UHGV virus genome: UHGV-0211472
Origin: a virus
Direction: 5' to 3' (one strand)
DNA: 64,000 bases
The translations under genes and the position numbers were made by a program. Below are positions 1,318 to 45,563 of this stretch, one piece after another. Within the stretch, counting starts at the first letter, position 1; each line of letters begins with the position of its first letter. The notes below the pieces were generated by a model. It was not told the origin of the DNA and did no database searches. It saw only the letters and a program-made list of their open reading frames with translations.

Positions 1318-4275
1318 ATGGCTCTCTACCCAATAAAATCTTTGGGTGCGGTTGGTGTTATTGCCGACCAATCTCCTACAGATCTGGCTCCTAATGCATT
1401 CACTAATGCAATCAATGCTCGGTTTGTAGAACAGCGTGTGTTTAAGACGGGGGGCTCTGCCCCTCTTTCTTACGTTGAGAGTGATAAAGGAATAAAACCA
1501 TTATCATTCACTTCAATGCCTTTTGACTACTTCAGTGCTAACAACAGTTTCTTGCTGGTAGGTACAGATAAGAGTATTTTTAGGCTAAATAATGAATCTA
1601 TGATTGATGTTAGTCGAAGAGTGGCCACAGTCACCAAAAAGGCTGTGTCTTACATTAAGATAAACCCTGTGCTAACAGAGATTGTCCCCAAAGAAACATC
1701 TGTCATTATGAGTTTTAATGAAAGCAAAGTTCTCGAGGTATCTCTTCTTCCAGAGGGTGTTACTACTCCATCTCTTGTGTGGGAAGTTAGCAATCCTTCT
1801 TATGGTTCAATACTAGTTGACCCTGACGATAACAAGAAGGCTACATTGAGCGTCTTGTCTAATGAGGGAAGCTTCACTGTCACCATCTCTAATGAAGAGG
1901 AATCTGTTACTGCCAGTATTTCCGTAAAAGTTGTTGATTCGGATTCTGGTATATTTCTTAACCGAGACTCTGTCCAACTCCGGAAAGGTGGGACAACTAC
2001 CCTTACAGCAACAACAAGTAAGACCCCTCTAACATGGACTTCTTCTAACCCAGCCATTATCTCTGTAGCGCCTAATGGTGACACTACTACCGCAGTGTTA
2101 ACCGCTCAAGGAGTAGGTAATGCACTGATAACTGTAAGCAACGGGTCTAAGACCTCAGAATGTTCTGTTAGCGTTATTAATCAGATTGACAGTATATCTT
2201 TGAGTCAAACAGACTTACAAATTAACCGTGGGACGTCTTATGTCTTATATGCTAGCTTGACCCCATCAAATGCTGCAAATCAGAAAATAACTTGGACCTC
2301 CTCTAATCCAAATGTTGCCACTGTTTCAGGAACTAGCCTTCAAGGAACTATCTCTGGACTCACAGCTGGGTTTACAGTTATAACAGCAACTACGGAAGAA
2401 GGCGAGAGGACAGCCACCTGTAATGTCAGGGTTGAGTTATCAAGCAGGACTCTTTTTGCTGCTGCATCGGCTCCTCCTGAAGAGTCTAGTTCTACGGATT
2501 CAGATATTGACACCTCAGCTATGTCAGAGGGGAACTCTTTTTATGACTACTCTATGGTTGATGGCGTTGAAGCCTATTCAATAAATGAAGTCATGTCTAG
2601 ATCAACTCAGCTTGAATCCTTAACTCTTGATATTGTGGATACTGAAATTGATGTTGGGGATGAGTTAGTAATAACTGCAACGGCAGCCCCTGAAGGGGAG
2701 TATCTTTATAGTTGGGTGGTAGACCAGCCGGGGTACATATCCTCTACTTCCACTACCGAGCCTTCCTTTACTTTAACTGCAATTAAGACTGGCAAAGTGA
2801 AGATAACCTGTACTGCTAGTCAAGTAGCTCGTAGAGATTATGAAGCGTTTGAAGAATACCCTTGGTATAATACCATCATCTCTAACTGTGCAGTGTTCAC
2901 TACTCACTATGAAACACCTCAAGTAAAAGAGTTTGCCTCTGAATACTTCACAGATCTTCCGGGGTGGGGAGAGCAGACGATAGTTGATGCTAATGGGAAC
3001 CCTTCTGTTGTAAAATATAACTGGAAGTGCGAAAGGATTCGTGCATTCAATAATCGCCTATTTGCTCTTAATATGCGAGAGTCTAATGCATCAGGGGTTA
3101 CTACTCACTACCCTCTTCGACTTCGCTGGTCTAACTATGCTAATGAGAACAAGGCACCTACCTTGTGGGATGACTTTGCTTATGACAGATATGTGACTTC
3201 AGATTTAGCAGCAAATGTTGTAGGTCAAACTGAGGCTCTAGAAAATGGATATGCCGGATACATAGATTTAGCTGACTCAAACGGTAGCTTAGTTGAGATT
3301 CTTCCTCTTAAGGATTATCTATTTATCTATACGGAGTTTGAGACTTACATTGGATCCCCAACTAACAACACATATCAACCTCTAATGTTCAAGAAGCTCT
3401 TCAATGATTCTGGAATCTTAGCACCTGAGTGTGTGGTTGAAGTTGAGAGTGGTCACTTTGTTGTTACTCAGAATGATGTTATTCTACACAATGGTGCAAC
3501 TAAGAAGTCTATTGCATCCAACAGGGTCAAGAATATGCTTATCAACGAGGTGTGTTTAGTAAACCCTTTAGCCACTAAGGTTCACCTACATCAAGATAAG
3601 AAGGAAGTGTGGATTCTCTATGTTGGACCCGGAGAACCCGCTGGGAGTTTTGCTTGTACAAAAGCTGCCGTATGGAACTACGAGTTTGATACATGGTCTT
3701 TCCGTACAATCCCATTCTCTCATTGCATTGGTTTGGTGGATCCTCCGACTTTAGAAAAAGGTCCTACTTGGGTTGATTTCCAAGAGTACACTTGGGATGA
3801 TCCCTCAATCAATGAACTTGTGTGGAGAAAGGATTCTACTAACTTCCGTCAGAGAGTCACTGTAGTAGGTTCTTGGATGAAAGGCTTTTACCAAGTAGAT
3901 GTAGGTCCTTATGACTACTCATATGATAGGTTGAATGACGTTGTTGTCAAGAAGCCATTAGAGATGAGATTGGAGAGAACTGGTATAGACTTTGACAATG
4001 TAACTAACGAGTGGAATCAGAAGCACATAAACAGGTTCCGCCCACAAGTAACAGGGTCAGGTACATACATATTCCAAGCGGGTGGTAGTCAGTATTCTGA
4101 CCAAGAAGATAGACACATTCATAGTGAAAAGTCTTATACGATCGGTGTTGACAGACATATAGGTGTCCGACTGAACCATCCGTATCTATTCTATAATGTT
4201 ATAGATAATGATGTTAACAGTAATGCAGCTATCAATGGACTAACTATTGAGTTTGCTGTTGGCGGGCGAAGATAA
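1318..4275 (+). CDS. Large structural protein with tandem Ig-like (Big_2-type) domains, putative tail fibre/spike
   Basis: 985 aa; repeated ~80 aa units of the form V..SP..V.L..G.T..L.AT..P..A..Q.ITWTSSNP..ATV; position in tail module. Confidence 0.45.
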   Translation: MALYPIKSLGAVGVIADQSPTDLAPNAFTNAINARFVEQRVFKTGGSAPLSYVESDKGIKPLSFTSMPFDYFSANNSFLLVGTDKSIFRLNNESMIDVSRRVATVTKKAVSYIKINPVLTEIVPKETSVIMSFNESKVLEVSLLPEGVTTPSLVWEVSNPSYGSILVDPDDNKKATLSVLSNEGSFTVTISNEEESVTASISVKVVDSDSGIFLNRDSVQLRKGGTTTLTATTSKTPLTWTSSNPAIISVAPNGDTTTAVLTAQGVGNALITVSNGSKTSECSVSVINQIDSISLSQTDLQINRGTSYVLYASLTPSNAANQKITWTSSNPNVATVSGTSLQGTISGLTAGFTVITATTEEGERTATCNVRVELSSRTLFAAASAPPEESSSTDSDIDTSAMSEGNSFYDYSMVDGVEAYSINEVMSRSTQLESLTLDIVDTEIDVGDELVITATAAPEGEYLYSWVVDQPGYISSTSTTEPSFTLTAIKTGKVKITCTASQVARRDYEAFEEYPWYNTIISNCAVFTTHYETPQVKEFASEYFTDLPGWGEQTIVDANGNPSVVKYNWKCERIRAFNNRLFALNMRESNASGVTTHYPLRLRWSNYANENKAPTLWDDFAYDRYVTSDLAANVVGQTEALENGYAGYIDLADSNGSLVEILPLKDYLFIYTEFETYIGSPTNNTYQPLMFKKLFNDSGILAPECVVEVESGHFVVTQNDVILHNGATKKSIASNRVKNMLINEVCLVNPLATKVHLHQDKKEVWILYVGPGEPAGSFACTKAAVWNYEFDTWSFRTIPFSHCIGLVDPPTLEKGPTWVDFQEYTWDDPSINELVWRKDSTNFRQRVTVVGSWMKGFYQVDVGPYDYSYDRLNDVVVKKPLEMRLERTGIDFDNVTNEWNQKHINRFRPQVTGSGTYIFQAGGSQYSDQEDRHIHSEKSYTIGVDRHIGVRLNHPYLFYNVIDNDVNSNAAINGLTIEFAVGGRR

Positions 4276-4325: not shown

Positions 4326-5294
4326 ATGGGTGCTGGTGGCTTTCGTAAGAATACCGGAAGAAACAACACAACACAACCTTACAGTGTGGGCTTTCTAAAC
4401 ACCTCTGAGAGTGTAGAAACTAACAACGTTGCAATATATGATGAACTACAGAACATTAGCACTGCAACTAACCAAATGTTCCAAGCTATAGATGAAATCC
4501 ATGAGGAGATTGATGTTCGTATTAAAGCTCTTCATGCTATGAATTTACAATTTGATGAATTAGAGAATCGTGTTACGACAGAGATTGAGACTGCCATCGC
4601 AGATATTATAACACAAATGGGTAACCTATCCACCGATGATATTTGGGATAATTCAGTTAGTCCTCCTGTTAAGTTAGATTCAACTATGTCTGGTATTAAG
4701 ACTTCTATAGAAGGTAACACAGCATCTATACAGACTGTTGAAGGGATTGTTAATGATCAAGGACAAGAGATTGCCCTTATCCAATCTGACCTGACGAACG
4801 GAACAGGTAGTGCATCTCAGTATATGAAGCTCACTGAGTACGAGGCTACTTGGGGCGTTAACTCCACGGTGAATGGTAAGACAGCAGGGGTAAAACTGAC
4901 AAATAATGGTTCTACAAGCCAATTCCAAGTCACTGCTGATAAATTCCTTGTTTCCGATGGCACATCAGGGAGTACTCCTTTTAAAGTAGTTGGTGGAAGG
5001 GCAGTTATGGAGTTTGCTGATATTACTAACGTTGTGATAACAACTGCTCAGATAGCAACAGCTAGGATTCAGTGGGCACAAATTGATAACGTTAGCATAA
5101 CAAATGCACAGATTACAAGTTTGTCCGCTGATAAGATAACAGCTGGGTCAATGTCAGGAACTAATTGGCGTCTTACGGTTGGTGGTGATTTTGTTTTGGG
5201 TAGGACTTCTAGTTCTCAGCTTTGGATGAATGGTAGTCGTATCGACTTCTATGATGCAAGTGGTACTCTTCGTATTAGAATAGGGAGTTGGTAA
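4326..5294 (+). CDS. Tail fibre-like structural protein
   Basis: 322 aa; N-terminal coiled-coil-like region, C-terminal repeated ITxAQI/T motifs; tail module context. Confidence 0.35.
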   Translation: MGAGGFRKNTGRNNTTQPYSVGFLNTSESVETNNVAIYDELQNISTATNQMFQAIDEIHEEIDVRIKALHAMNLQFDELENRVTTEIETAIADIITQMGNLSTDDIWDNSVSPPVKLDSTMSGIKTSIEGNTASIQTVEGIVNDQGQEIALIQSDLTNGTGSASQYMKLTEYEATWGVNSTVNGKTAGVKLTNNGSTSQFQVTADKFLVSDGTSGSTPFKVVGGRAVMEFADITNVVITTAQIATARIQWAQIDNVSITNAQITSLSADKITAGSMSGTNWRLTVGGDFVLGRTSSSQLWMNGSRIDFYDASGTLRIRIGSW

Positions 5295-5295
5295 T

Positions 5296-6330
5296 ATGGC
5301 GTATGGAATATGGACAACGCCAGTCGGACCGGGACCAGCTTCTCCGGCTGAGCTTTTTATTGATAGTGATTCTACTTTCCCTCAATTCAAGAACAGGGTT
5401 AGTGGTAATTACAACTTTAATGGGGGTAGTAGAGATTTCCCTATTTCTGGATGGGATGGCTCAGGCCAAATCGTTGTAGTCCCCACCGGCTCTTTGTGTT
5501 GGCAATGGGAAGTCCCTCCTAATCTTGTCCCTGATGTGTATGTTGTAAACAATATCAGTATTGTAAATAACTCAACTTTCAGGGTTAGTATAAACATGAA
5601 TCCCGGAAGTAATCCACTGTTTGACGTGGCTTTCAATGTATACCAAATATGGCCTAGAGCCAATAGAAACTATGGTATAACCTTTTCAAACACAGCTGAT
5701 TACTTCTCTATATCAGATGCTGGAGTTGTTGGTCAATGTATTTGGGCTTGGGAAGGAAACATTAATGGCTCTATGCAAATACCAGCAATCAGTGGTTTTG
5801 ATATGTCTAGAGCTTCAGTGTTTGCTAACTGGTCTGGAGGACAAGGTTTACTCTATGATGCTGGGAGTCGTAATATCAGGGTTTACCAAAACAGAACCTA
5901 TGATAACGGAAACAACAACCAAACAGGAACAATTAATAATGTGAGAGTTGCAGTGTTCTGTAACGGGGCTGGTGTTCCTACTCACAATGGTGGATTAAAC
6001 ATATATTCACCTAATGGTTCTCAGTGTGTATTTTCTACTTACAGAACACCTTTTATGGTTGATCGTTTTATGGCTATGAGTGGAGGGAATACTGGACTTA
6101 CATATCCTATGATACCTCTGACGAACGGGGCAGGTTCTATTAGGGGTCAGGCGGGGAGTTGGTATTTCCAACATGCTAGATCTCATACGATGAACGGCTC
6201 TTCTTTTGGTACAGGGTATGGTCGATATATGTTCCAGTGGGATAGAAACTACGATATGGGTGGTGGTGGGGCTATCTCCCTTCAGATTCCAGTCCTAGAT
6301 GCTAGGAAGATTTTTAGAAGCATACAATAA
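5296..6330 (+). CDS. Hypothetical structural protein
   Basis: 344 aa ORF tightly packed (2 nt gap) in late operon; Gly/Asn-rich. Confidence 0.35.
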   Translation: MAYGIWTTPVGPGPASPAELFIDSDSTFPQFKNRVSGNYNFNGGSRDFPISGWDGSGQIVVVPTGSLCWQWEVPPNLVPDVYVVNNISIVNNSTFRVSINMNPGSNPLFDVAFNVYQIWPRANRNYGITFSNTADYFSISDAGVVGQCIWAWEGNINGSMQIPAISGFDMSRASVFANWSGGQGLLYDAGSRNIRVYQNRTYDNGNNNQTGTINNVRVAVFCNGAGVPTHNGGLNIYSPNGSQCVFSTYRTPFMVDRFMAMSGGNTGLTYPMIPLTNGAGSIRGQAGSWYFQHARSHTMNGSSFGTGYGRYMFQWDRNYDMGGGGAISLQIPVLDARKIFRSIQ

Positions 6331-28260: not shown

Positions 28261-29562
28261 TCACACTTCAAAAGAGAAACCGCGACCCGATTCATCGGCA
28301 AACCGAACTGTACGGGTTTGAGGTTCTAATACTTCAGGGTTGTTGGCAACAAATCTATCAGCGAGGCTATCTCCTAAATCCTCTATCACATCTTCATCAG
28401 TCCACACAGTCCTAACCGGTACATCAAAGTCACCAGCAACAAAACCCTGACCGGAGAATTGACGTGCGCTGACAGTAAAGTCATTTGACCGACCACGAGA
28501 AGAACCAGTCATCCACCGCTCTGTAGAACCGTTCGTAATACCAAGAGCCTCTTCAAAAGATGTTCTAGGATCGGGGCTTTCACTTCGTGACTCTTGTGCT
28601 CGACGCATTTCAGGGACTGCAAACACCCCTTCCATTGTGTTGTGATGATTAGTCTCATCTTCCCGACCAAGTAGATCTCCACTTGTATTGGTTGTTAAGT
28701 TTGTCAACCCTTCAGACCAATACGCACTAATCTGACTAGATCCATGAACACTTGACATTAACTGGATTTCTTCATAAGGGATTCCAAAGAATCGACTCAT
28801 GTCACGATTAACACAATACTGAGCACTTGTTGTATCCTCAACAAGAGCAACCTGACCCCATTCATTGATCAGATGACTGACCGGTTGAGGTGTGGGAAGA
28901 TATCGAGATTGTGCCATATATTGGTATGCAACAGATGGAGCGGAGAATCTTAATACCTGTGAATTAGGCCACTTCTTGTGAACATACTTGATTTCACGAC
29001 CAGAAACAACTACTGGACAGGGGGAGGTCATAGCCAAATATCCATGAGGGGTCATGAATAGATTGTCAAGAGTAATCGCACCACGGCACATCATAGGAAA
29101 GCTGTCCAACACCTCTTCAATAGAAGTAGGATAGTTAAACATGAATTGGATACGAACCCCACTCCACTGGAACTCAATAATATCGGTAAATGTTAACAGA
29201 GATCCTTCAGCGTAGGCTTCATTCGTAGCTTCAGCAAGAAGGGAAGAGTACTCAATATCTTGAGACTCGAGCCACTCTTTCACGTTACTTTCAACCTCTC
29301 GTCCGAGATCTTGCCACTGGTCATGGTGGATAAAGGTGTTTCGAGTTCTTGGGGCCTGTCCTCTGACAATAAAGATATCAATGTCATGAGGTGCTCTGTT
29401 ATTAAGAACAGCATCACGAACAGCCCCACCAGTGATGATGGGACAAATACAGTCTGGAATCAAGTTGTTGTTAATCAGCTGTTCAATGAAGTGACGACCA
29501 ACAGCGATATCAGGTTGTTGAGCAACCTTATCTGCAATTCGGTTAATCGGGATAACAATCAT
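28261..29562 (-). CDS. Nucleotidyltransferase (CCA-adding / poly(A) polymerase head-domain type)
   Basis: IITGGAVRDAVLN-x9-DIDIFI matches the GGxVRD...DxD head motif; start moved to ATG MIVIPINR to avoid 56 nt overlap. Confidence 0.5.
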   Translation of the reverse strand: MIVIPINRIADKVAQQPDIAVGRHFIEQLINNNLIPDCICPIITGGAVRDAVLNNRAPHDIDIFIVRGQAPRTRNTFIHHDQWQDLGREVESNVKEWLESQDIEYSSLLAEATNEAYAEGSLLTFTDIIEFQWSGVRIQFMFNYPTSIEEVLDSFPMMCRGAITLDNLFMTPHGYLAMTSPCPVVVSGREIKYVHKKWPNSQVLRFSAPSVAYQYMAQSRYLPTPQPVSHLINEWGQVALVEDTTSAQYCVNRDMSRFFGIPYEEIQLMSSVHGSSQISAYWSEGLTNLTTNTSGDLLGREDETNHHNTMEGVFAVPEMRRAQESRSESPDPRTSFEEALGITNGSTERWMTGSSRGRSNDFTVSARQFSGQGFVAGDFDVPVRTVWTDEDVIEDLGDSLADRFVANNPEVLEPQTRTVRFADESGRGFSFEV

Positions 29563-29563
29563 T

Positions 29564-30121
29564 TTACATTTTCCAATATAATGAAGGTGGGTCGTAAGGG
29601 TCAAATCCTGTGAGTTCACACAAGTATTTATAAACCTTAACAGTTAAATTAACGTCCTGTTCACAATAAGTAAACATATCCTCAGTGAAAGCATCCCATG
29701 CTTCCTCTTGCTCACCGTAATCACCTTTAAGTTCCCCTAAGAACTCACCCCATTGCTTCAAGCCATGACCTCTTGGGCCATGTCTAGGGTCGCCTTTCGG
29801 GTACTCAGGACTGTCACCAATACGGTCAGGTTTAAGATATCGACTAAGACATAAAGTGTCAAAGACGTTAAAACGATAGTTAATCAGATTGGGATACATC
29901 TTCTTCAGAGCACAAAGGTCGAAGTCAATAATATTGTGACCCACGAGCACATCTGCTTCTGTAAGTTTATGAATCCCATCTTCAATTTGGTGAGGCCGAT
30001 AGCCCCACCTTTCACCAGTTTCAACATCGAAAACATAAATACACCATACTTTGGTTATATCATCGTATAGTGCATTACTCTCAATATCGAATGCAAACAC
30101 TTTCTTCTTTTTCTTTACCAC
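29564..30121 (-). CDS. 3'-5' proofreading exonuclease (T7 gp5 N-terminal domain-like), stand-alone
   Basis: Exo I FDIES, Exo [11 protein letters not shown], Exo III YCEQDV; colinear with T7 DNA polymerase residues ~1-190. Confidence 0.75.
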
Positions 30122-30660
30122 GGTGAAGCTCCATCTGCTTGGCTGACGAGAGAAGCTGCATCCTCTCCGTTAGTTAAAACGAATGGATTATCTTCATCAA
30201 CTTCAAAGTCTTCCCTTTCTACAAGTCTACCGGTTTCACTGATATACTTAGTATAACAGACACCTGTCTGACCGTAGTTACGTTCTTTCAGTAATCGAAT
30301 GACTGAGAGGTTCTTAGCTAAGCCGTCAGCTTGCTTGTCACGCTCAAAGCCAATGATACACTGACACCAACGCATAAGAGAACGAGAGCCAGTGAACTGT
30401 ACTTCACGTACCTGTCCACCTTCTTCATGAGGAGCACCACCTGCCGGAGCATTAAGGTGAGATAGCACGAAAGCGGTAAAGTCTAACTCTTTACACATAC
30501 CAGCAAGCTCGGAAGCGATCTTACTGATTTCAGTGTTAATCTCTGAAGGTGTTAAATGAGATACCAGAGCGGTAATGTTATCAAGGATGATAAATTTACA
30601 CTGGTTTTCAACTACCCAGAAACGAATACACTGTTTAATGTCTTCCCATTCGTTTTGCAA
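30115..30660 (-). CDS. Primase-helicase, 3' exon (helicase motifs H2-H4)
   Basis: [10 protein letters not shown] and QFTGSRS helicase motifs; no Walker A; frame is open upstream to a TGA with no ATG/GTG; true exon start likely at 30675 or 30690. Confidence 0.7.
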
Positions 30661-30910
30661 TAATTCAATGAAGGACGCAACTCCTTCACCCGTAGCATTA
30701 TATCTACTGCCCGTGGTTTCCCACGGGATTGGACTATATCATCACTCCTATTAAGGAGGCTAGGCGCTTCCACTAGCATTAGCTTCTAGTGTACTCCTTT
30801 CGGATAGTCTCTGCACTTTCTAGGATGTATCCTAGCTTAGCTCAGGATTGGCATATCTTTCGACTTAGCTTTCCCTGAATTCACCTAGTTTTACTTCGGC
30901 CATTGTGTTA
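30661..30910 (-). ncRNA. Group I self-splicing intron (subgroup IA-like) in primase-helicase gene
   Basis: Minus-strand P/Q/R/S cores GAATTCAGGGAAAGC, CAATCCTGAGC, GCAGAGACTATCC, GATATAGTCCAA; P9 CCCGTGG-GAAA-CCACGGG; guide GGCCGAAG pairs with exon end ACTTCGGT; 3' boundary uncertain (30676 or 30691). Confidence 0.6.
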
Positions 30911-45047: not shown

Positions 45048-45563
45048 CTATTTAGTTAACCAAAAACCTTTCGGCTTTTTAACAACACCAAGAATCCTAC
45101 ATCTCTTATGGACAGCCGAATCACTAACACTCAGTAACCTCCCTACTACGTACACGGGGTAAATGTCTATTAAAGACTGAAGAGATTCTTTTGTTATTTC
45201 AAACCGTCTGCTATCTAATTTGGCACAAAGCTGTGAGCAAAACCTTTGGTTGCTATTCTCTGAAACAAGGTAAATCTCTCCACAAAAAGAACATAATCTT
45301 TCTTCCATAACAGCCCCATGATGATGCCTGCTATGCTCCTCATAAGTCATGATTTCTAAATTAGATGGTTCGTTGTTTAACTTATTCTCATCCTTGTGAT
45401 GAACCACTAGGTCAGAGTTCAGTTCGACACCGTAGAAATTTTGAGCAACATACCTATGAACATACACCTTTCCAGCTTTATTGGCCATAGGGTGTGTTGG
45501 TTGGTACACATACAAATAACCAACACCTTTATCAACAACTGCTTTACTTAGATCTAGCTTCAT
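45048..45563 (-). CDS. HNH homing endonuclease
   Basis: HNH core VHHKDENKLNNEPSNLEIMTYEEHSRHHH plus C-terminal CxxC...C zinc motif. Confidence 0.6.
   Translation of the reverse strand: MKLDLSKAVVDKGVGYLYVYQPTHPMANKAGKVYVHRYVAQNFYGVELNSDLVVHHKDENKLNNEPSNLEIMTYEEHSRHHHGAVMEERLCSFCGEIYLVSENSNQRFCSQLCAKLDSRRFEITKESLQSLIDIYPVYVVGRLLSVSDSAVHKRCRILGVVKKPKGFWLTK

What the first reader, a model, noticed from the sequence alone, without database searches (positions are those of the whole stretch)
30661..30910. Group I intron splits the primase-helicase gene between Walker A and the remaining helicase motifs
The T7 gp4-like primase-helicase is carried by two minus-strand ORFs. ORF 30908..32158 has the zinc ribbon, TOPRIM (MDNDDAG) and Walker A (GGGVGSGKT) and ends ...LYDNFG-stop. 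ORF 30115..30660 has the later helicase motifs but no usable start; its frame is open upstream to a TGA. The ~235-250 nt between them carries, on the minus strand, the conserved group I core: P-like GAATTCAGGGAAAGC, Q-like CAATCCTGAGC, R-like GCAGAGACTATCC, S-like GATATAGTCCAA, a P7.1/7.2-like hairpin CACTAG..CTAGTG, P8-like TCCT-uaau-AGGA and P9 CCCGTGG-GAAA-CCACGGG. The guide GGCCGAAG pairs with the exon end ACTTCGGT (U.G at the splice site), so the intron starts with the TAA stop, as in T4 td. No ORF lies inside the intron. The 3' splice site (after GCG at 30676 or ACG at 30691) cannot be fixed by eye.
Basis: partly seen in the sequence, partly recalled or inferred. Interest (0 to 1): 0.8.

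Follow-up and report, generated by a model that had tools for sequence, protein, structure and literature searches.

The report
Group I intron in phage primase-helicase
A 253-base self-splicing (group I) intron with no gene of its own interrupts the essential primase-helicase gene of this SU10-like coliphage; it is a real but ordinary kind of phage mobile element, in a host gene where I found no earlier description.

Summary

- **Identity.** The Rfam group I intron model matches window 30920..30710 (minus strand) at 86.3 bits against a gathering score of 50, E 1.4e-20. It is the only Rfam hit in the 64 kb.
- **Boundaries.** The window is a Kuravirus (SU10/phiEco32-like coliphage). A 90-nt spliced-junction probe matches 97 annotated phage records contiguously, so they lack the insert. 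Base-level alignment with SU10 fixes the intron at 30910..30658, 253 nt. The 5' splice site follows U30911 and the 3' splice site follows G30658, not 30676 or 30691.
- **Product.** Removing the intron gives a 596-aa protein, 594/596 identical to SU10's uninterrupted primase/helicase and colinear with T7 gp4.
- **Structure.** P1, P3-P9.2 and IA-type P7.1/P7.2 are present and supported by covariation. P1 covaries with the exon in a relative.
- **Other copies.** The same site is occupied in other public contigs, usually by a 739-741-nt version carrying an I-HmuI-like HNH endonuclease gene in P6. One copy shows a relic of that gene.
- **Splice-site base.** Among eight alleles compared base by base, only position -1 separates intron-bearing (T) from intron-less (A/G) genes. 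It is the U of the splice-site U.G pair.

Novelty: a new member of a known kind. Splicing itself is inferred, not shown.

The parts
30911..32158 (-). Exon 1 of the primase-helicase gene (416 codons: zinc ribbon, TOPRIM, Walker A GGGVGSGKT). It ends ...LYDNFG with GGT.
   Evidence: It is colinear with SU10 gp076 and T7 gp4.
30658..30910 (-). Group I intron, 253 nt, with no ORF. It starts with an in-frame UAA and ends with the terminal G (omega-G) at 30658.
   Evidence: Rfam 86.3 bits. Boundaries come from the intron-less SU10 allele. An identical copy is in L029.
30115..30657 (-). Exon 2 (180 codons plus stop). It starts QNEWEDIK... and holds Walker B (FIILD) and the later helicase motifs.
   Evidence: It has 8-15 nt differences but only 1-2 aa differences from relatives.
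30893..30918 (-). P1: exon ACUUCGGU (30918..30911) pairs with the internal guide GCCGAAGU (30900..30893), with U30911.G30900 at the 5' splice site.
   Evidence: The L007 copy has exon AUUACGGU and guide GGCCGUAAU, two compensatory double changes.
30760..30888 (-). P3: CUAGGUG (30888..30882) pairs with CGCCUAG (30766..30760). It encloses P4-P6, the 5' strand of P7, P7.1 and P7.2.
   Evidence: 7/7 pairs in all 8 sequences; 4 pairs change on both sides.
30815..30878 (-). P4-P5-P5a-P6-P6a domain. P4 is 30878..30873 with 30847..30842. The P6a hairpin CUAGGA-UACA-UCCUAG is at 30835..30820, where sister copies carry the HNH gene.
30732..30809 (-). P7: GACUA (30809..30805) pairs with UAGUC (30736..30732). 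It crosses P3 as a pseudoknot. By analogy with known group I introns it holds the guanosine-binding site.
   Evidence: Invariant in 8/8 sequences. The function is inferred from knowledge of the family.
30771..30804 (-). P7.1 (UCC-GAAA-GGA, 30804..30795) and P7.2 (CACUAG...CUAGUG, 30791..30771), the extra hairpins typical of subgroup IA.
   Evidence: All 6 P7.2 pairs change on both sides.
30745..30758 (-). P8: CUCCU-UAAU-AGGAG.
30670..30727 (-). P9 (30727..30710, GAAA loop), P9.1 (30707..30692) and P9.2 (30687..30670), followed by AUUGAAUUAUUG and the 3' splice site.
   Evidence: The G-C to A-U change in P9.2 between the window and VTCCBPA_211 is.

Best explanation
Window 30910..30658 (minus strand) is a 253-nt, ORF-less group I intron of the phage IA (IA2-like) type. 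It is inserted in the T7 gp4-like primase-helicase gene between codons Gly416 and Gln417, after Walker A and before Walker B.

The inferred mechanism is the standard one. The transcript folds into P1 and P3-P9.2. An external guanosine bound in P7 attacks after U30911, which is held in a U.G pair by the guide GGCCGAAGU. The freed exon 1 then attacks after the terminal G30658, joining ...AACUUCGGU to CAAAACGAAUGG. That gives one mRNA for a 596-aa primase-helicase. Ribosomes on unspliced RNA stop at the UAA that forms the first intron codon.

The element belongs to a mobile family that usually carries an I-HmuI-like HNH homing endonuclease gene in the P6 loop. This copy lacks that gene, so it cannot drive its own homing. 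It persists by inheritance or recombination, or conceivably by an endonuclease supplied in trans.

Shown here: identity, exact boundaries, conserved structure, restoration of the reading frame, and presence/absence among relatives. Inferred: actual splicing and the mode of mobility.
For: - **Covariance model.** Rfam RF00028 scores 86.3 bits, E 1.4e-20, over the full model, and is the only hit in the window.
- **Folding.** The unconstrained MFE fold recovers P1, P3-P6a, P7.1, P7.2, P8, P9, P9.1 and P9.2, with z = -5.08.
- **Boundaries.** SU10 reads ...TTCGGA|CAGAAC... uninterrupted, where the window has ...TTCGGT[253 nt]CAAAAC.... A 90-nt spliced junction matches 97 phage records contiguously.
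- **Product.** The spliced product is 596 aa, 594/596 identical to SU10 gp076. It is colinear with T7 gp4 across the junction, E 1.5e-32.
- **Covariation.** On 8 related introns, 85.3% of cells pair, against 31-48% with slid partners. Thirty-one pairs change on both sides, against 18.0 +/- 2.3 in shuffles, and 0 of 500 shuffles reach that.
- **P1 covaries with the exon.** The window has ACUUCGGU/GGCCGAAGU and L007 has AUUACGGU/GGCCGUAAU.
- **Same-site homologues.** They occur in VTCCBPA_211, in L025-L032, and in hosts only about 55% identical (L004, L005, L015).
- **Position -1.** It is T in the window, VTCCBPA_211 and the eight further Kuravirus-type copies L025-L032, and A/G in all 6 intron-less alleles compared.
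- **Selection on exon 2.** Exon 2 differs from relatives at 8-15 nt but only 1-2 aa.
Against: No RNA or biochemical data exist for this element, so splicing is inferred. P10 is only 2 bp (C-G, A-U), read by eye. There is no P2. This copy has no endonuclease gene, so its present mobility is not shown. Most of the eight alignment sequences are related, so shuffle statistics overstate independence. The slid-partner control and the pair-type counts are the safer evidence.
Confidence: 0.92

Rival explanations
1. The insert is a splicing-dead intron relic. The gene is expressed as two separate polypeptides (416 aa plus about 180 aa starting at TTG 30660) that assemble into a split helicase, or the gene is a pseudogene.
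For: Automatic annotation of VTCCBPA_211 calls two separate genes. The ORF lister finds a TTG start at 30660. No expression data exist.
Against: - Every core helix, the U.G pair and the terminal G are intact, and the helices covary.
- The TTG is the conserved intron 3' end (UUUUG/AUUG in L004, L005 and L015).
- The nearest GGAG is 19 nt upstream and sits inside the P9.2 stem.
- The cut falls between Walker A and Walker B of one RecA-type fold.
- 97 relatives encode a single chain.
- Position -1 is T only in intron-bearing alleles, which matters only if P1 is used.
- The split allele recurs on 17 public contigs.
Confidence: 0.04
2. The intron is real and splices. Although it has no ORF, it is still actively mobile, because the free-standing NUMOD4/HNH endonuclease encoded 1.9 kb upstream (32787..33335) cuts intron-less primase-helicase alleles at the insertion site (collaborative, or trans, homing).
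For: - The window and L029 combine the ORF-less intron with this free-standing HNH. Copies that carry the intron-borne HNH mostly lack it at that locus.
- The two HNH proteins belong to the same family, 38% identical.
- Collaborative homing is documented for other phages (review PMC3984707).
Against: - Homologues 67-70% identical sit at the same GGCT-adjacent locus in Kuraviruses such as EK010, whose primase-helicase is uninterrupted.
- The gene is separated from the target gene by two ORFs.
- L031 has both an HNH ORF next to GGCT and the intron-borne HNH.
- No cleavage data exist.
Confidence: 0.1
3. The intron has been co-opted as a regulator. Because its first codon is UAA, unspliced RNA yields a 416-aa primase-only protein, and splicing efficiency sets the ratio of primase-only to full-length primase-helicase.
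For: The in-frame UAA lies directly at the 5' splice site in the Kuravirus copies. From memory, the T4 td intron gives a truncated exon-1 product, and T7 naturally makes two gp4 forms.
Against: About 97 close relatives do without the intron, so no such regulation is required. L004-type copies stop three codons into the intron instead. An early stop codon is a common feature of phage introns. A fragment carrying Walker A without Walker B is more likely inert or harmful.
Confidence: 0.03

Closest known systems
T4 td (thymidylate synthase) group I intron, subgroup IA2
   Same: A phage protein-coding host gene of DNA metabolism. IA-type core with P7.1/P7.2. The intron opens with an in-frame UAA (td feature from memory). 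In sister copies of the present intron the endonuclease ORF is looped out of P6, as in td. The L004, L005 and L015 copies have a td-like short P1 plus a P2.
   Different: The window copy has no ORF and no P2, and has a long 8-bp P1. The associated endonuclease family is HNH, whereas td carries the GIY-YIG enzyme I-TevI. The host gene is different.
SPO1/SP82 DNA polymerase introns encoding I-HmuI/I-HmuII (nicking HNH endonucleases)
   Same: The HNH ORF of the sister copies is about 35% identical to the SPO1-group intron endonucleases over 84% of its length. These are group I introns in a replication gene.
   Different: A Gram-positive phage host and a different target gene. The window copy lacks the endonuclease.
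DNA polymerase introns of T7-like and N4-like phages (Vi06, Bas93/94; Pf-WMP3 I-PfoP3I, PMC3428280)
   Same: The ribozyme core is 80-82% identical over about 90 nt to the Vi06 and Bas93/94 polymerase introns. An exact 28-mer of P7/P7.1 is shared with a polymerase intron on IMG/VR contig L003.
   Different: They are inserted in DNA polymerase rather than primase-helicase, and they carry other endonuclease ORFs (Endo VII-like in L003).
Group I introns in helicase genes of staphylococcal myoviruses (Romulus, Remus, K, G1)
   Same: Precedent for a phage helicase gene as intron host (PMC5526547).
   Different: An unrelated phage group and a different helicase gene, not a gp4-type bifunctional primase-helicase. 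No sequence comparison was made here.
Cyanophage S-PM2 psbA intron with free-standing F-CphI (collaborative homing)
   Same: An ORF-less intron with a free-standing endonuclease gene nearby in the same genome.
   Different: Here nothing shows that the free-standing HNH targets the insertion site, and its homologues occur in intron-less genomes.

Membership tests
Group I intron (Rfam RF00028) | Conserved core secondary structure (the P3-P8/P7 and P4-P6 domains), scored by sequence and structure together | tested here: met
   86.3 bits against a gathering score of 50, E 1.4e-20, model positions 1-253. The MFE fold recovers the helices.
Group I intron (Rfam RF00028) | Helices maintained by compensatory change among homologues | tested here: met
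   85.3% paired against 31-48% with slid partners. 31 pairs change on both sides against 18.0 +/- 2.3 in shuffles, 0/500. P3, P7.2 and P9 are rich in double changes.
Group I intron (Rfam RF00028) | P1 formed by the exon end and an internal guide sequence, with U.G at the 5' splice site | tested here: met
   ACUUCGGU pairs with GGCCGAAGU, with U30911.G. The guide covaries with the exon in L007. -1 is T only in intron-bearing alleles.
Group I intron (Rfam RF00028) | Terminal guanosine (omega-G) immediately before the 3' splice site | tested here: met
   G30658, fixed by the intron-less SU10 allele. The same ...UUG|CAAAA junction is seen in L004, L005, L015 and L025-L032.
Group I intron (Rfam RF00028) | Precise removal restores the host reading frame | tested here: met
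   253 nt removed gives 596 aa, 594/596 identical to SU10 gp076. This was tested in silico only.
Group I intron (Rfam RF00028) | Guanosine-dependent self-splicing of the RNA | not testable with these tools
   Needs in vitro transcription with GTP, or RT-PCR from infected cells.
Subgroup IA (IA2-like phage introns) | Extra hairpins P7.1 and P7.2 between the 5' strand of P7 and the 3' strand of P3 | tested here: met
   UCC-GAAA-GGA and CACUAG...CUAGUG at 30804..30771. P7.2 covaries. The assignment to IA rests on my knowledge of the Michel-Westhof scheme. No subgroup-specific models were run.
Subgroup IA (IA2-like phage introns) | P2 hairpin between P1 and P3 | tested here: not met
   Rfam aligns the P2 positions to gaps in the window copy. 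P2 is present in the L004, L005 and L015 copies. I treat P2 as a variable peripheral element, not as grounds for exclusion.
Mobile (homing) group I intron | Intron-encoded homing endonuclease | tested here: not met
   There is no ORF in the 253 nt, with stops in all three frames. Sister copies carry a 168/176-aa NUMOD4/HNH_3 ORF in P6.
Mobile (homing) group I intron | Presence/absence polymorphism at one exact site among close relatives, and the same site occupied in distant hosts | tested here: met
   97 records match the spliced junction contiguously against 1 intron-bearing annotated phage record. 17 contigs carry the split allele. The same codon boundary is used in hosts 55% identical.
Mobile (homing) group I intron | Co-conversion of flanking exon markers | tested here: inconclusive
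   Only -1 is linked to the intron, and no longer tract is visible among 8 alleles.

The most novel reading that the evidence does not exclude
The ORF-less intron and the free-standing NUMOD4/HNH gene 1.9 kb upstream (32787..33335) form a two-part homing system in which the endonuclease cuts intron-less primase-helicase alleles in trans. Together with the relic-bearing L015 copy and the ORF-bearing sister copies, that would capture the gain, loss and trans stages of the homing cycle in one gene that carries introns at four different sites.
Probability: 0.1. Interest if true: 0.5.

Novelty: new member of a known kind. Interest (0 to 1): 0.35.

Why it matters
The practical point is annotation. 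The essential primase-helicase of this phage, and of at least 17 public contigs, is one gene, not a truncated "polymerase" plus a "helicase" as GenBank record PP989838 has it. Gene callers and the Rfam gathering threshold both miss the ORF-bearing copies.

Biologically, it adds the gp4-type primase-helicase to the phage replication genes colonised by IA-type introns. Across relatives the gene is hit at four sites or more. Three of these were read against the T7 gp4 alignment: inside Walker A, at the AHEEG motif, and at a position I believe is next to the arginine finger (from memory). The set also gives a compact natural series of endonuclease-bearing, relic-bearing and ORF-less copies for studying the homing cycle.

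None of this changes how group I introns are understood.

Tried and rejected
Rejected. They would add 6 or 11 residues that are absent from SU10 and from the 97 phage records that match the spliced junction contiguously.
- **Rfam at gathering threshold on ORF-bearing copies (L002, L003, L004, L005, L010-L019).** It finds nothing, because the roughly 500-nt P6 insert breaks the model. I located those copies by motif and alignment instead.
- **MAFFT alignment of P1/P2.** It was out of register, so I tabulated P1 by hand and left it out of the formal count.
- **An extended co-conversion tract.** None found; only -1 is linked to the intron. +3 (A against G) is not intron-specific.
- **A second intron of this family in the window.** None; the core motifs occur only once.
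- **Simple deletion origin.** The window's P6a stem (CUAGGA/UCCUAG) differs from the ORF-bearing stem (CCCUUCUCC/GGAGAAGGG). By eye, the 3' half differs at roughly 15 positions while the 5' part is identical. So this is not a recent deletion of the VTCCBPA_211-type copy.
- **Literature.** Searches for a Kuravirus, phiEco32 or primase-helicase intron found nothing specific.
- **Intein or group II intron readings.** Not pursued. The insert has stops in all frames and matches the group I model.

Full report
**1. Observation**

On the minus strand, ORF 30908..32158 (416 aa) ends ...FFLYDNFG-TAA. A second frame, open from 30660 to 30115, carries Walker B and the later helicase motifs.

The Rfam group I intron model (RF00028) matches 30920..30710 (minus strand) end to end at 86.3 bits. 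The gathering score is 50 and the E-value is 1.4e-20. It is the only Rfam family found in the 64-kb window. An unconstrained MFE fold of 30920..30650 recovers P1, P3, P4, P5, P6/P6a, P7.1, P7.2, P8, P9, P9.1 and P9.2. It gives -87.2 kcal/mol with z = -5.08, and none of 200 shuffles folds as well.

**2. Exact boundaries**

The window is a Kuravirus (Gordonclarkvirinae; SU10/phiEco32-like coliphage), about 97% identical to many sequenced isolates. In 70 of 98 matching records the 2.3-kb query aligns in two pieces covering 89%, so the insert is missing.

SU10 reads ...GACAACTTCGGA|CAGAACGAATGG... without interruption. The window has ...GACAACTTCGGT, then 253 nt, then CAAAACGAATGG.... The flanking bases differ from the intron ends, so the placement is unambiguous. 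The intron is 30910..30658. The 5' splice site follows U30911 and the 3' splice site follows G30658.

Joining the exons gives 596 codons, 594/596 identical to SU10 gp076. The product aligns colinearly with T7 gp4 structures (5ikn_D, E 1.5e-32): LYDNFG|QNEWED matches T7 LYDSFA|EAETDR, about 20 residues before the Walker B IILD. A 90-nt spliced-junction probe matches 97 phage records contiguously. The best match is 97.8% and none reaches 100%.

**3. Structure and covariation**

- P1 pairs exon ACUUCGGU (30918..30911) with guide GCCGAAGU (30900..30893), with a U.G pair at the splice site.
- P7.1 and P7.2 lie between the 5' strand of P7 and the 3' strand of P3, the layout of subgroup IA, the class traditionally associated with phage introns.
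- There is no P2.
- P10 is only 2 bp, read by eye.

I aligned eight related introns with the variable P6a/ORF element removed: six from the same insertion site and two sisters. On that alignment 85.3% of cells form standard pairs, against 31-48% when the 3' partners are slid. Thirty-one of 56 pairs show changes on both sides, against 18.0 +/- 2.3 in shuffles, and 0 of 500 shuffles reach that number. P3, P7.2 and P9 vary most, and P7 is invariant.

P1 had to be read by hand, and it is the most telling helix. The L007 copy sits in an exon that reads AUUACGGU, and its guide reads GGCCGUAAU. Those are two compensatory double changes relative to the window. Other family members in other genes each match their own exon: L007 intron 1 has GGAGGU/GGCCUCC, and L009 has CUUUAACU/GGUUAAAG.

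**4. The same element elsewhere**

- **VTCCBPA_211 (PP989838).** It has a 739-nt insert at the same position: the same ribozyme plus a 176-aa NUMOD4/HNH_3/HTH ORF looped out of P6. The ORF's tail overlaps P7-P7.2-P3'. That protein is about 35% identical to the HNH endonucleases of the SPO1-group polymerase introns (I-HmuI family). GenBank labels the three pieces "DNA directed DNA polymerase", "hypothetical protein" and "helicase".
- **Public assemblies.** The exact 416-aa exon-1 product occurs on 17 contigs. Of the eight places shown, seven carry the 739-741-nt HNH-bearing intron. One, L029 (ENA ERZ27289133), has a 253-nt intron identical to the window's, with four more similar places not shown.
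- **Distant hosts.** Contigs whose host protein is only about 55% identical (L004, L005/L006, L015) have a homologous intron at the same codon boundary (...NFG|QN...). It has a td-like short P1, a P2 and a homologous HNH ORF.
- **Relic of the endonuclease gene.** L015 has lost the ORF but keeps a relic: the ribosome-binding site, ATG and two codons fused to the last codons of the ORF.

The window's P6a stem is not the stem of the ORF-bearing Kuravirus copies. Its 3' half also differs from theirs at several, largely compensatory, positions, while the 5' part up to P6 is identical. So it is not a fresh deletion of that version.

**5. Signature at the splice site**

I compared eight alleles base by base: two intron-bearing and six intron-less. 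The only position shared by both intron-bearing genes and absent from all intron-less ones is -1. It is T in GGT against A or G in GGA/GGG, all coding for Gly. The eight further Kuravirus-type copies, L025-L032, are also GGT. This is the base that must be U to form the U.G pair, so the exon is adapted to, or was co-converted with, the ribozyme. No longer co-conversion tract is visible.

Exon 2 differs from relatives at 8-15 nucleotides but only 1-2 amino acids. It is therefore still read in the frame that splicing restores.

**6. Mechanism**

Shown: a structurally complete group I ribozyme sits at a position whose precise removal restores an essential, conserved gene.

Inferred from the established chemistry of the family: guanosine attack after U30911, then exon ligation after G30658. 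Ribosomes on unspliced RNA stop at the UAA that opens the intron, as I recall for T4 td.

With no endonuclease gene, this copy cannot promote its own homing. The HNH-bearing sisters presumably spread by nicking or cutting intron-less alleles, and ORF loss follows, as L015 illustrates.

**7. Rivals**

- **Two separate polypeptides or a dead intron.** The apparent TTG start is the conserved intron 3' end. The nearest GGAG is 19 nt upstream and lies within P9.2. The cut would fall inside one RecA-type fold. The exon-guide covariation and the -1 signature make sense only if P1 is used. I give this about 4%.
- **Trans homing by the free-standing HNH at 32787..33335.** It is attractive because the window and L029 pair that gene with the ORF-less intron. 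However, homologues 67-70% identical occupy the same locus in genomes with an uninterrupted primase-helicase, such as EK010, and it is only 38% identical to the intron-borne enzyme. I give this about 10%. It is not exclusive of the main explanation.
- **A regulatory role for a 416-aa truncated product.** This is unsupported.

**8. Comparison with what is known, and novelty**

Group I introns in phage DNA polymerase, ribonucleotide reductase, thymidylate synthase and terminase genes are textbook (PMC3984707). Helicase genes of staphylococcal myoviruses are also reported hosts (PMC5526547). I found no description of an intron in a Kuravirus or in a gp4-type primase-helicase. The held library is limited, so that absence is weak evidence.

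The ribozyme core is 80-82% identical over about 90 nt to polymerase introns of Vi06 and Bas93/94, and shares an exact 28-mer with a polymerase intron on an IMG/VR contig.

Verdict: a new member of a known kind.

Noticed in passing
window 32787..33335 (-): A free-standing NUMOD4 + HNH_3 endonuclease gene (182 aa) overlaps the start of the gamma-glutamyl cyclotransferase gene (32378..32803). It is absent at that spot in SU10 and VTCCBPA_211. Homologues 67-70% identical sit at the same locus in EK010, E20-1 and EcoN5. It is 38% identical to the intron-borne HNH of sister copies.
   Followed up: partly
window about 45324..45545 (-): A third HNH-like stretch was detected by local tblastn with the two HNH proteins (37-59% identity over 27-73 aa).
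   Followed up: no
L007 5021..about 5277 (Logan SRR31860671, 35-kb contig): A second ORF-less group I intron (Rfam 74.4 bits) sits in the same primase-helicase gene, inserted inside the Walker A motif (GGGVGG|GKT). The same contig also has an ORF-less intron at the window's site.
   Followed up: partly
L004 from 2310 to the contig end; L025 about 5276..5897 (also L030): Further same-family introns lie in exon 2 of relatives. One follows ...APHEEG| (L004). One is at ...SLMR|WCQC... and carries a 111-aa HNH ORF (L025, L030). With the Walker A site and the window's site, the gene carries introns at four sites or more.
   Followed up: partly
L015 2457..2170 (-) (IMGVR_UViG_3300033120_000502): A same-site intron (Rfam 86.2 bits) has a P6 loop that keeps the ribosome-binding site, ATG and two codons fused to the ORF's last codons. 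This is a clear internal deletion of the homing endonuclease gene. A second Rfam hit (62.1 bits) lies just downstream at 1926..1612.
   Followed up: partly
L002 (GenBank PP989838, VTCCBPA_211) 1643..4172: The public annotation splits the gene into 'DNA directed DNA polymerase' (exon 1), 'hypothetical protein' (the intron HNH) and 'helicase' (exon 2). No intron is annotated.
   Followed up: yes
L002, L003, L004, L005, L010-L019: Rfam at its gathering threshold reports nothing for any copy with an endonuclease ORF in P6, so ORF-bearing phage introns of this family are systematically missed by that routine scan.
   Followed up: yes
phage records KBNP1711 (NC_023593 40455..40524), LAMP, Bas89: DNA polymerase I regions of other Kuravirus-like phages match intron nt 22-91 at 86% identity. 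This suggests a related, unannotated intron in their polymerase genes.
   Followed up: no
window 30763..30816 (-): The window's ORF-less intron still encodes, in one frame, 17 of 18 residues of the C-terminal tail of the sister copies' HNH protein, because that ORF tail overlaps the P7-P7.2 ribozyme core.
   Followed up: partly
window 28261..30121 (-): Downstream of the primase-helicase lie a separate 185-aa 3'-5' exonuclease subunit and a 452-aa nucleotidyltransferase-like ORF. The order is the same as in SU10, so this split of the polymerase functions is a lineage feature and not another insertion.
   Followed up: partly
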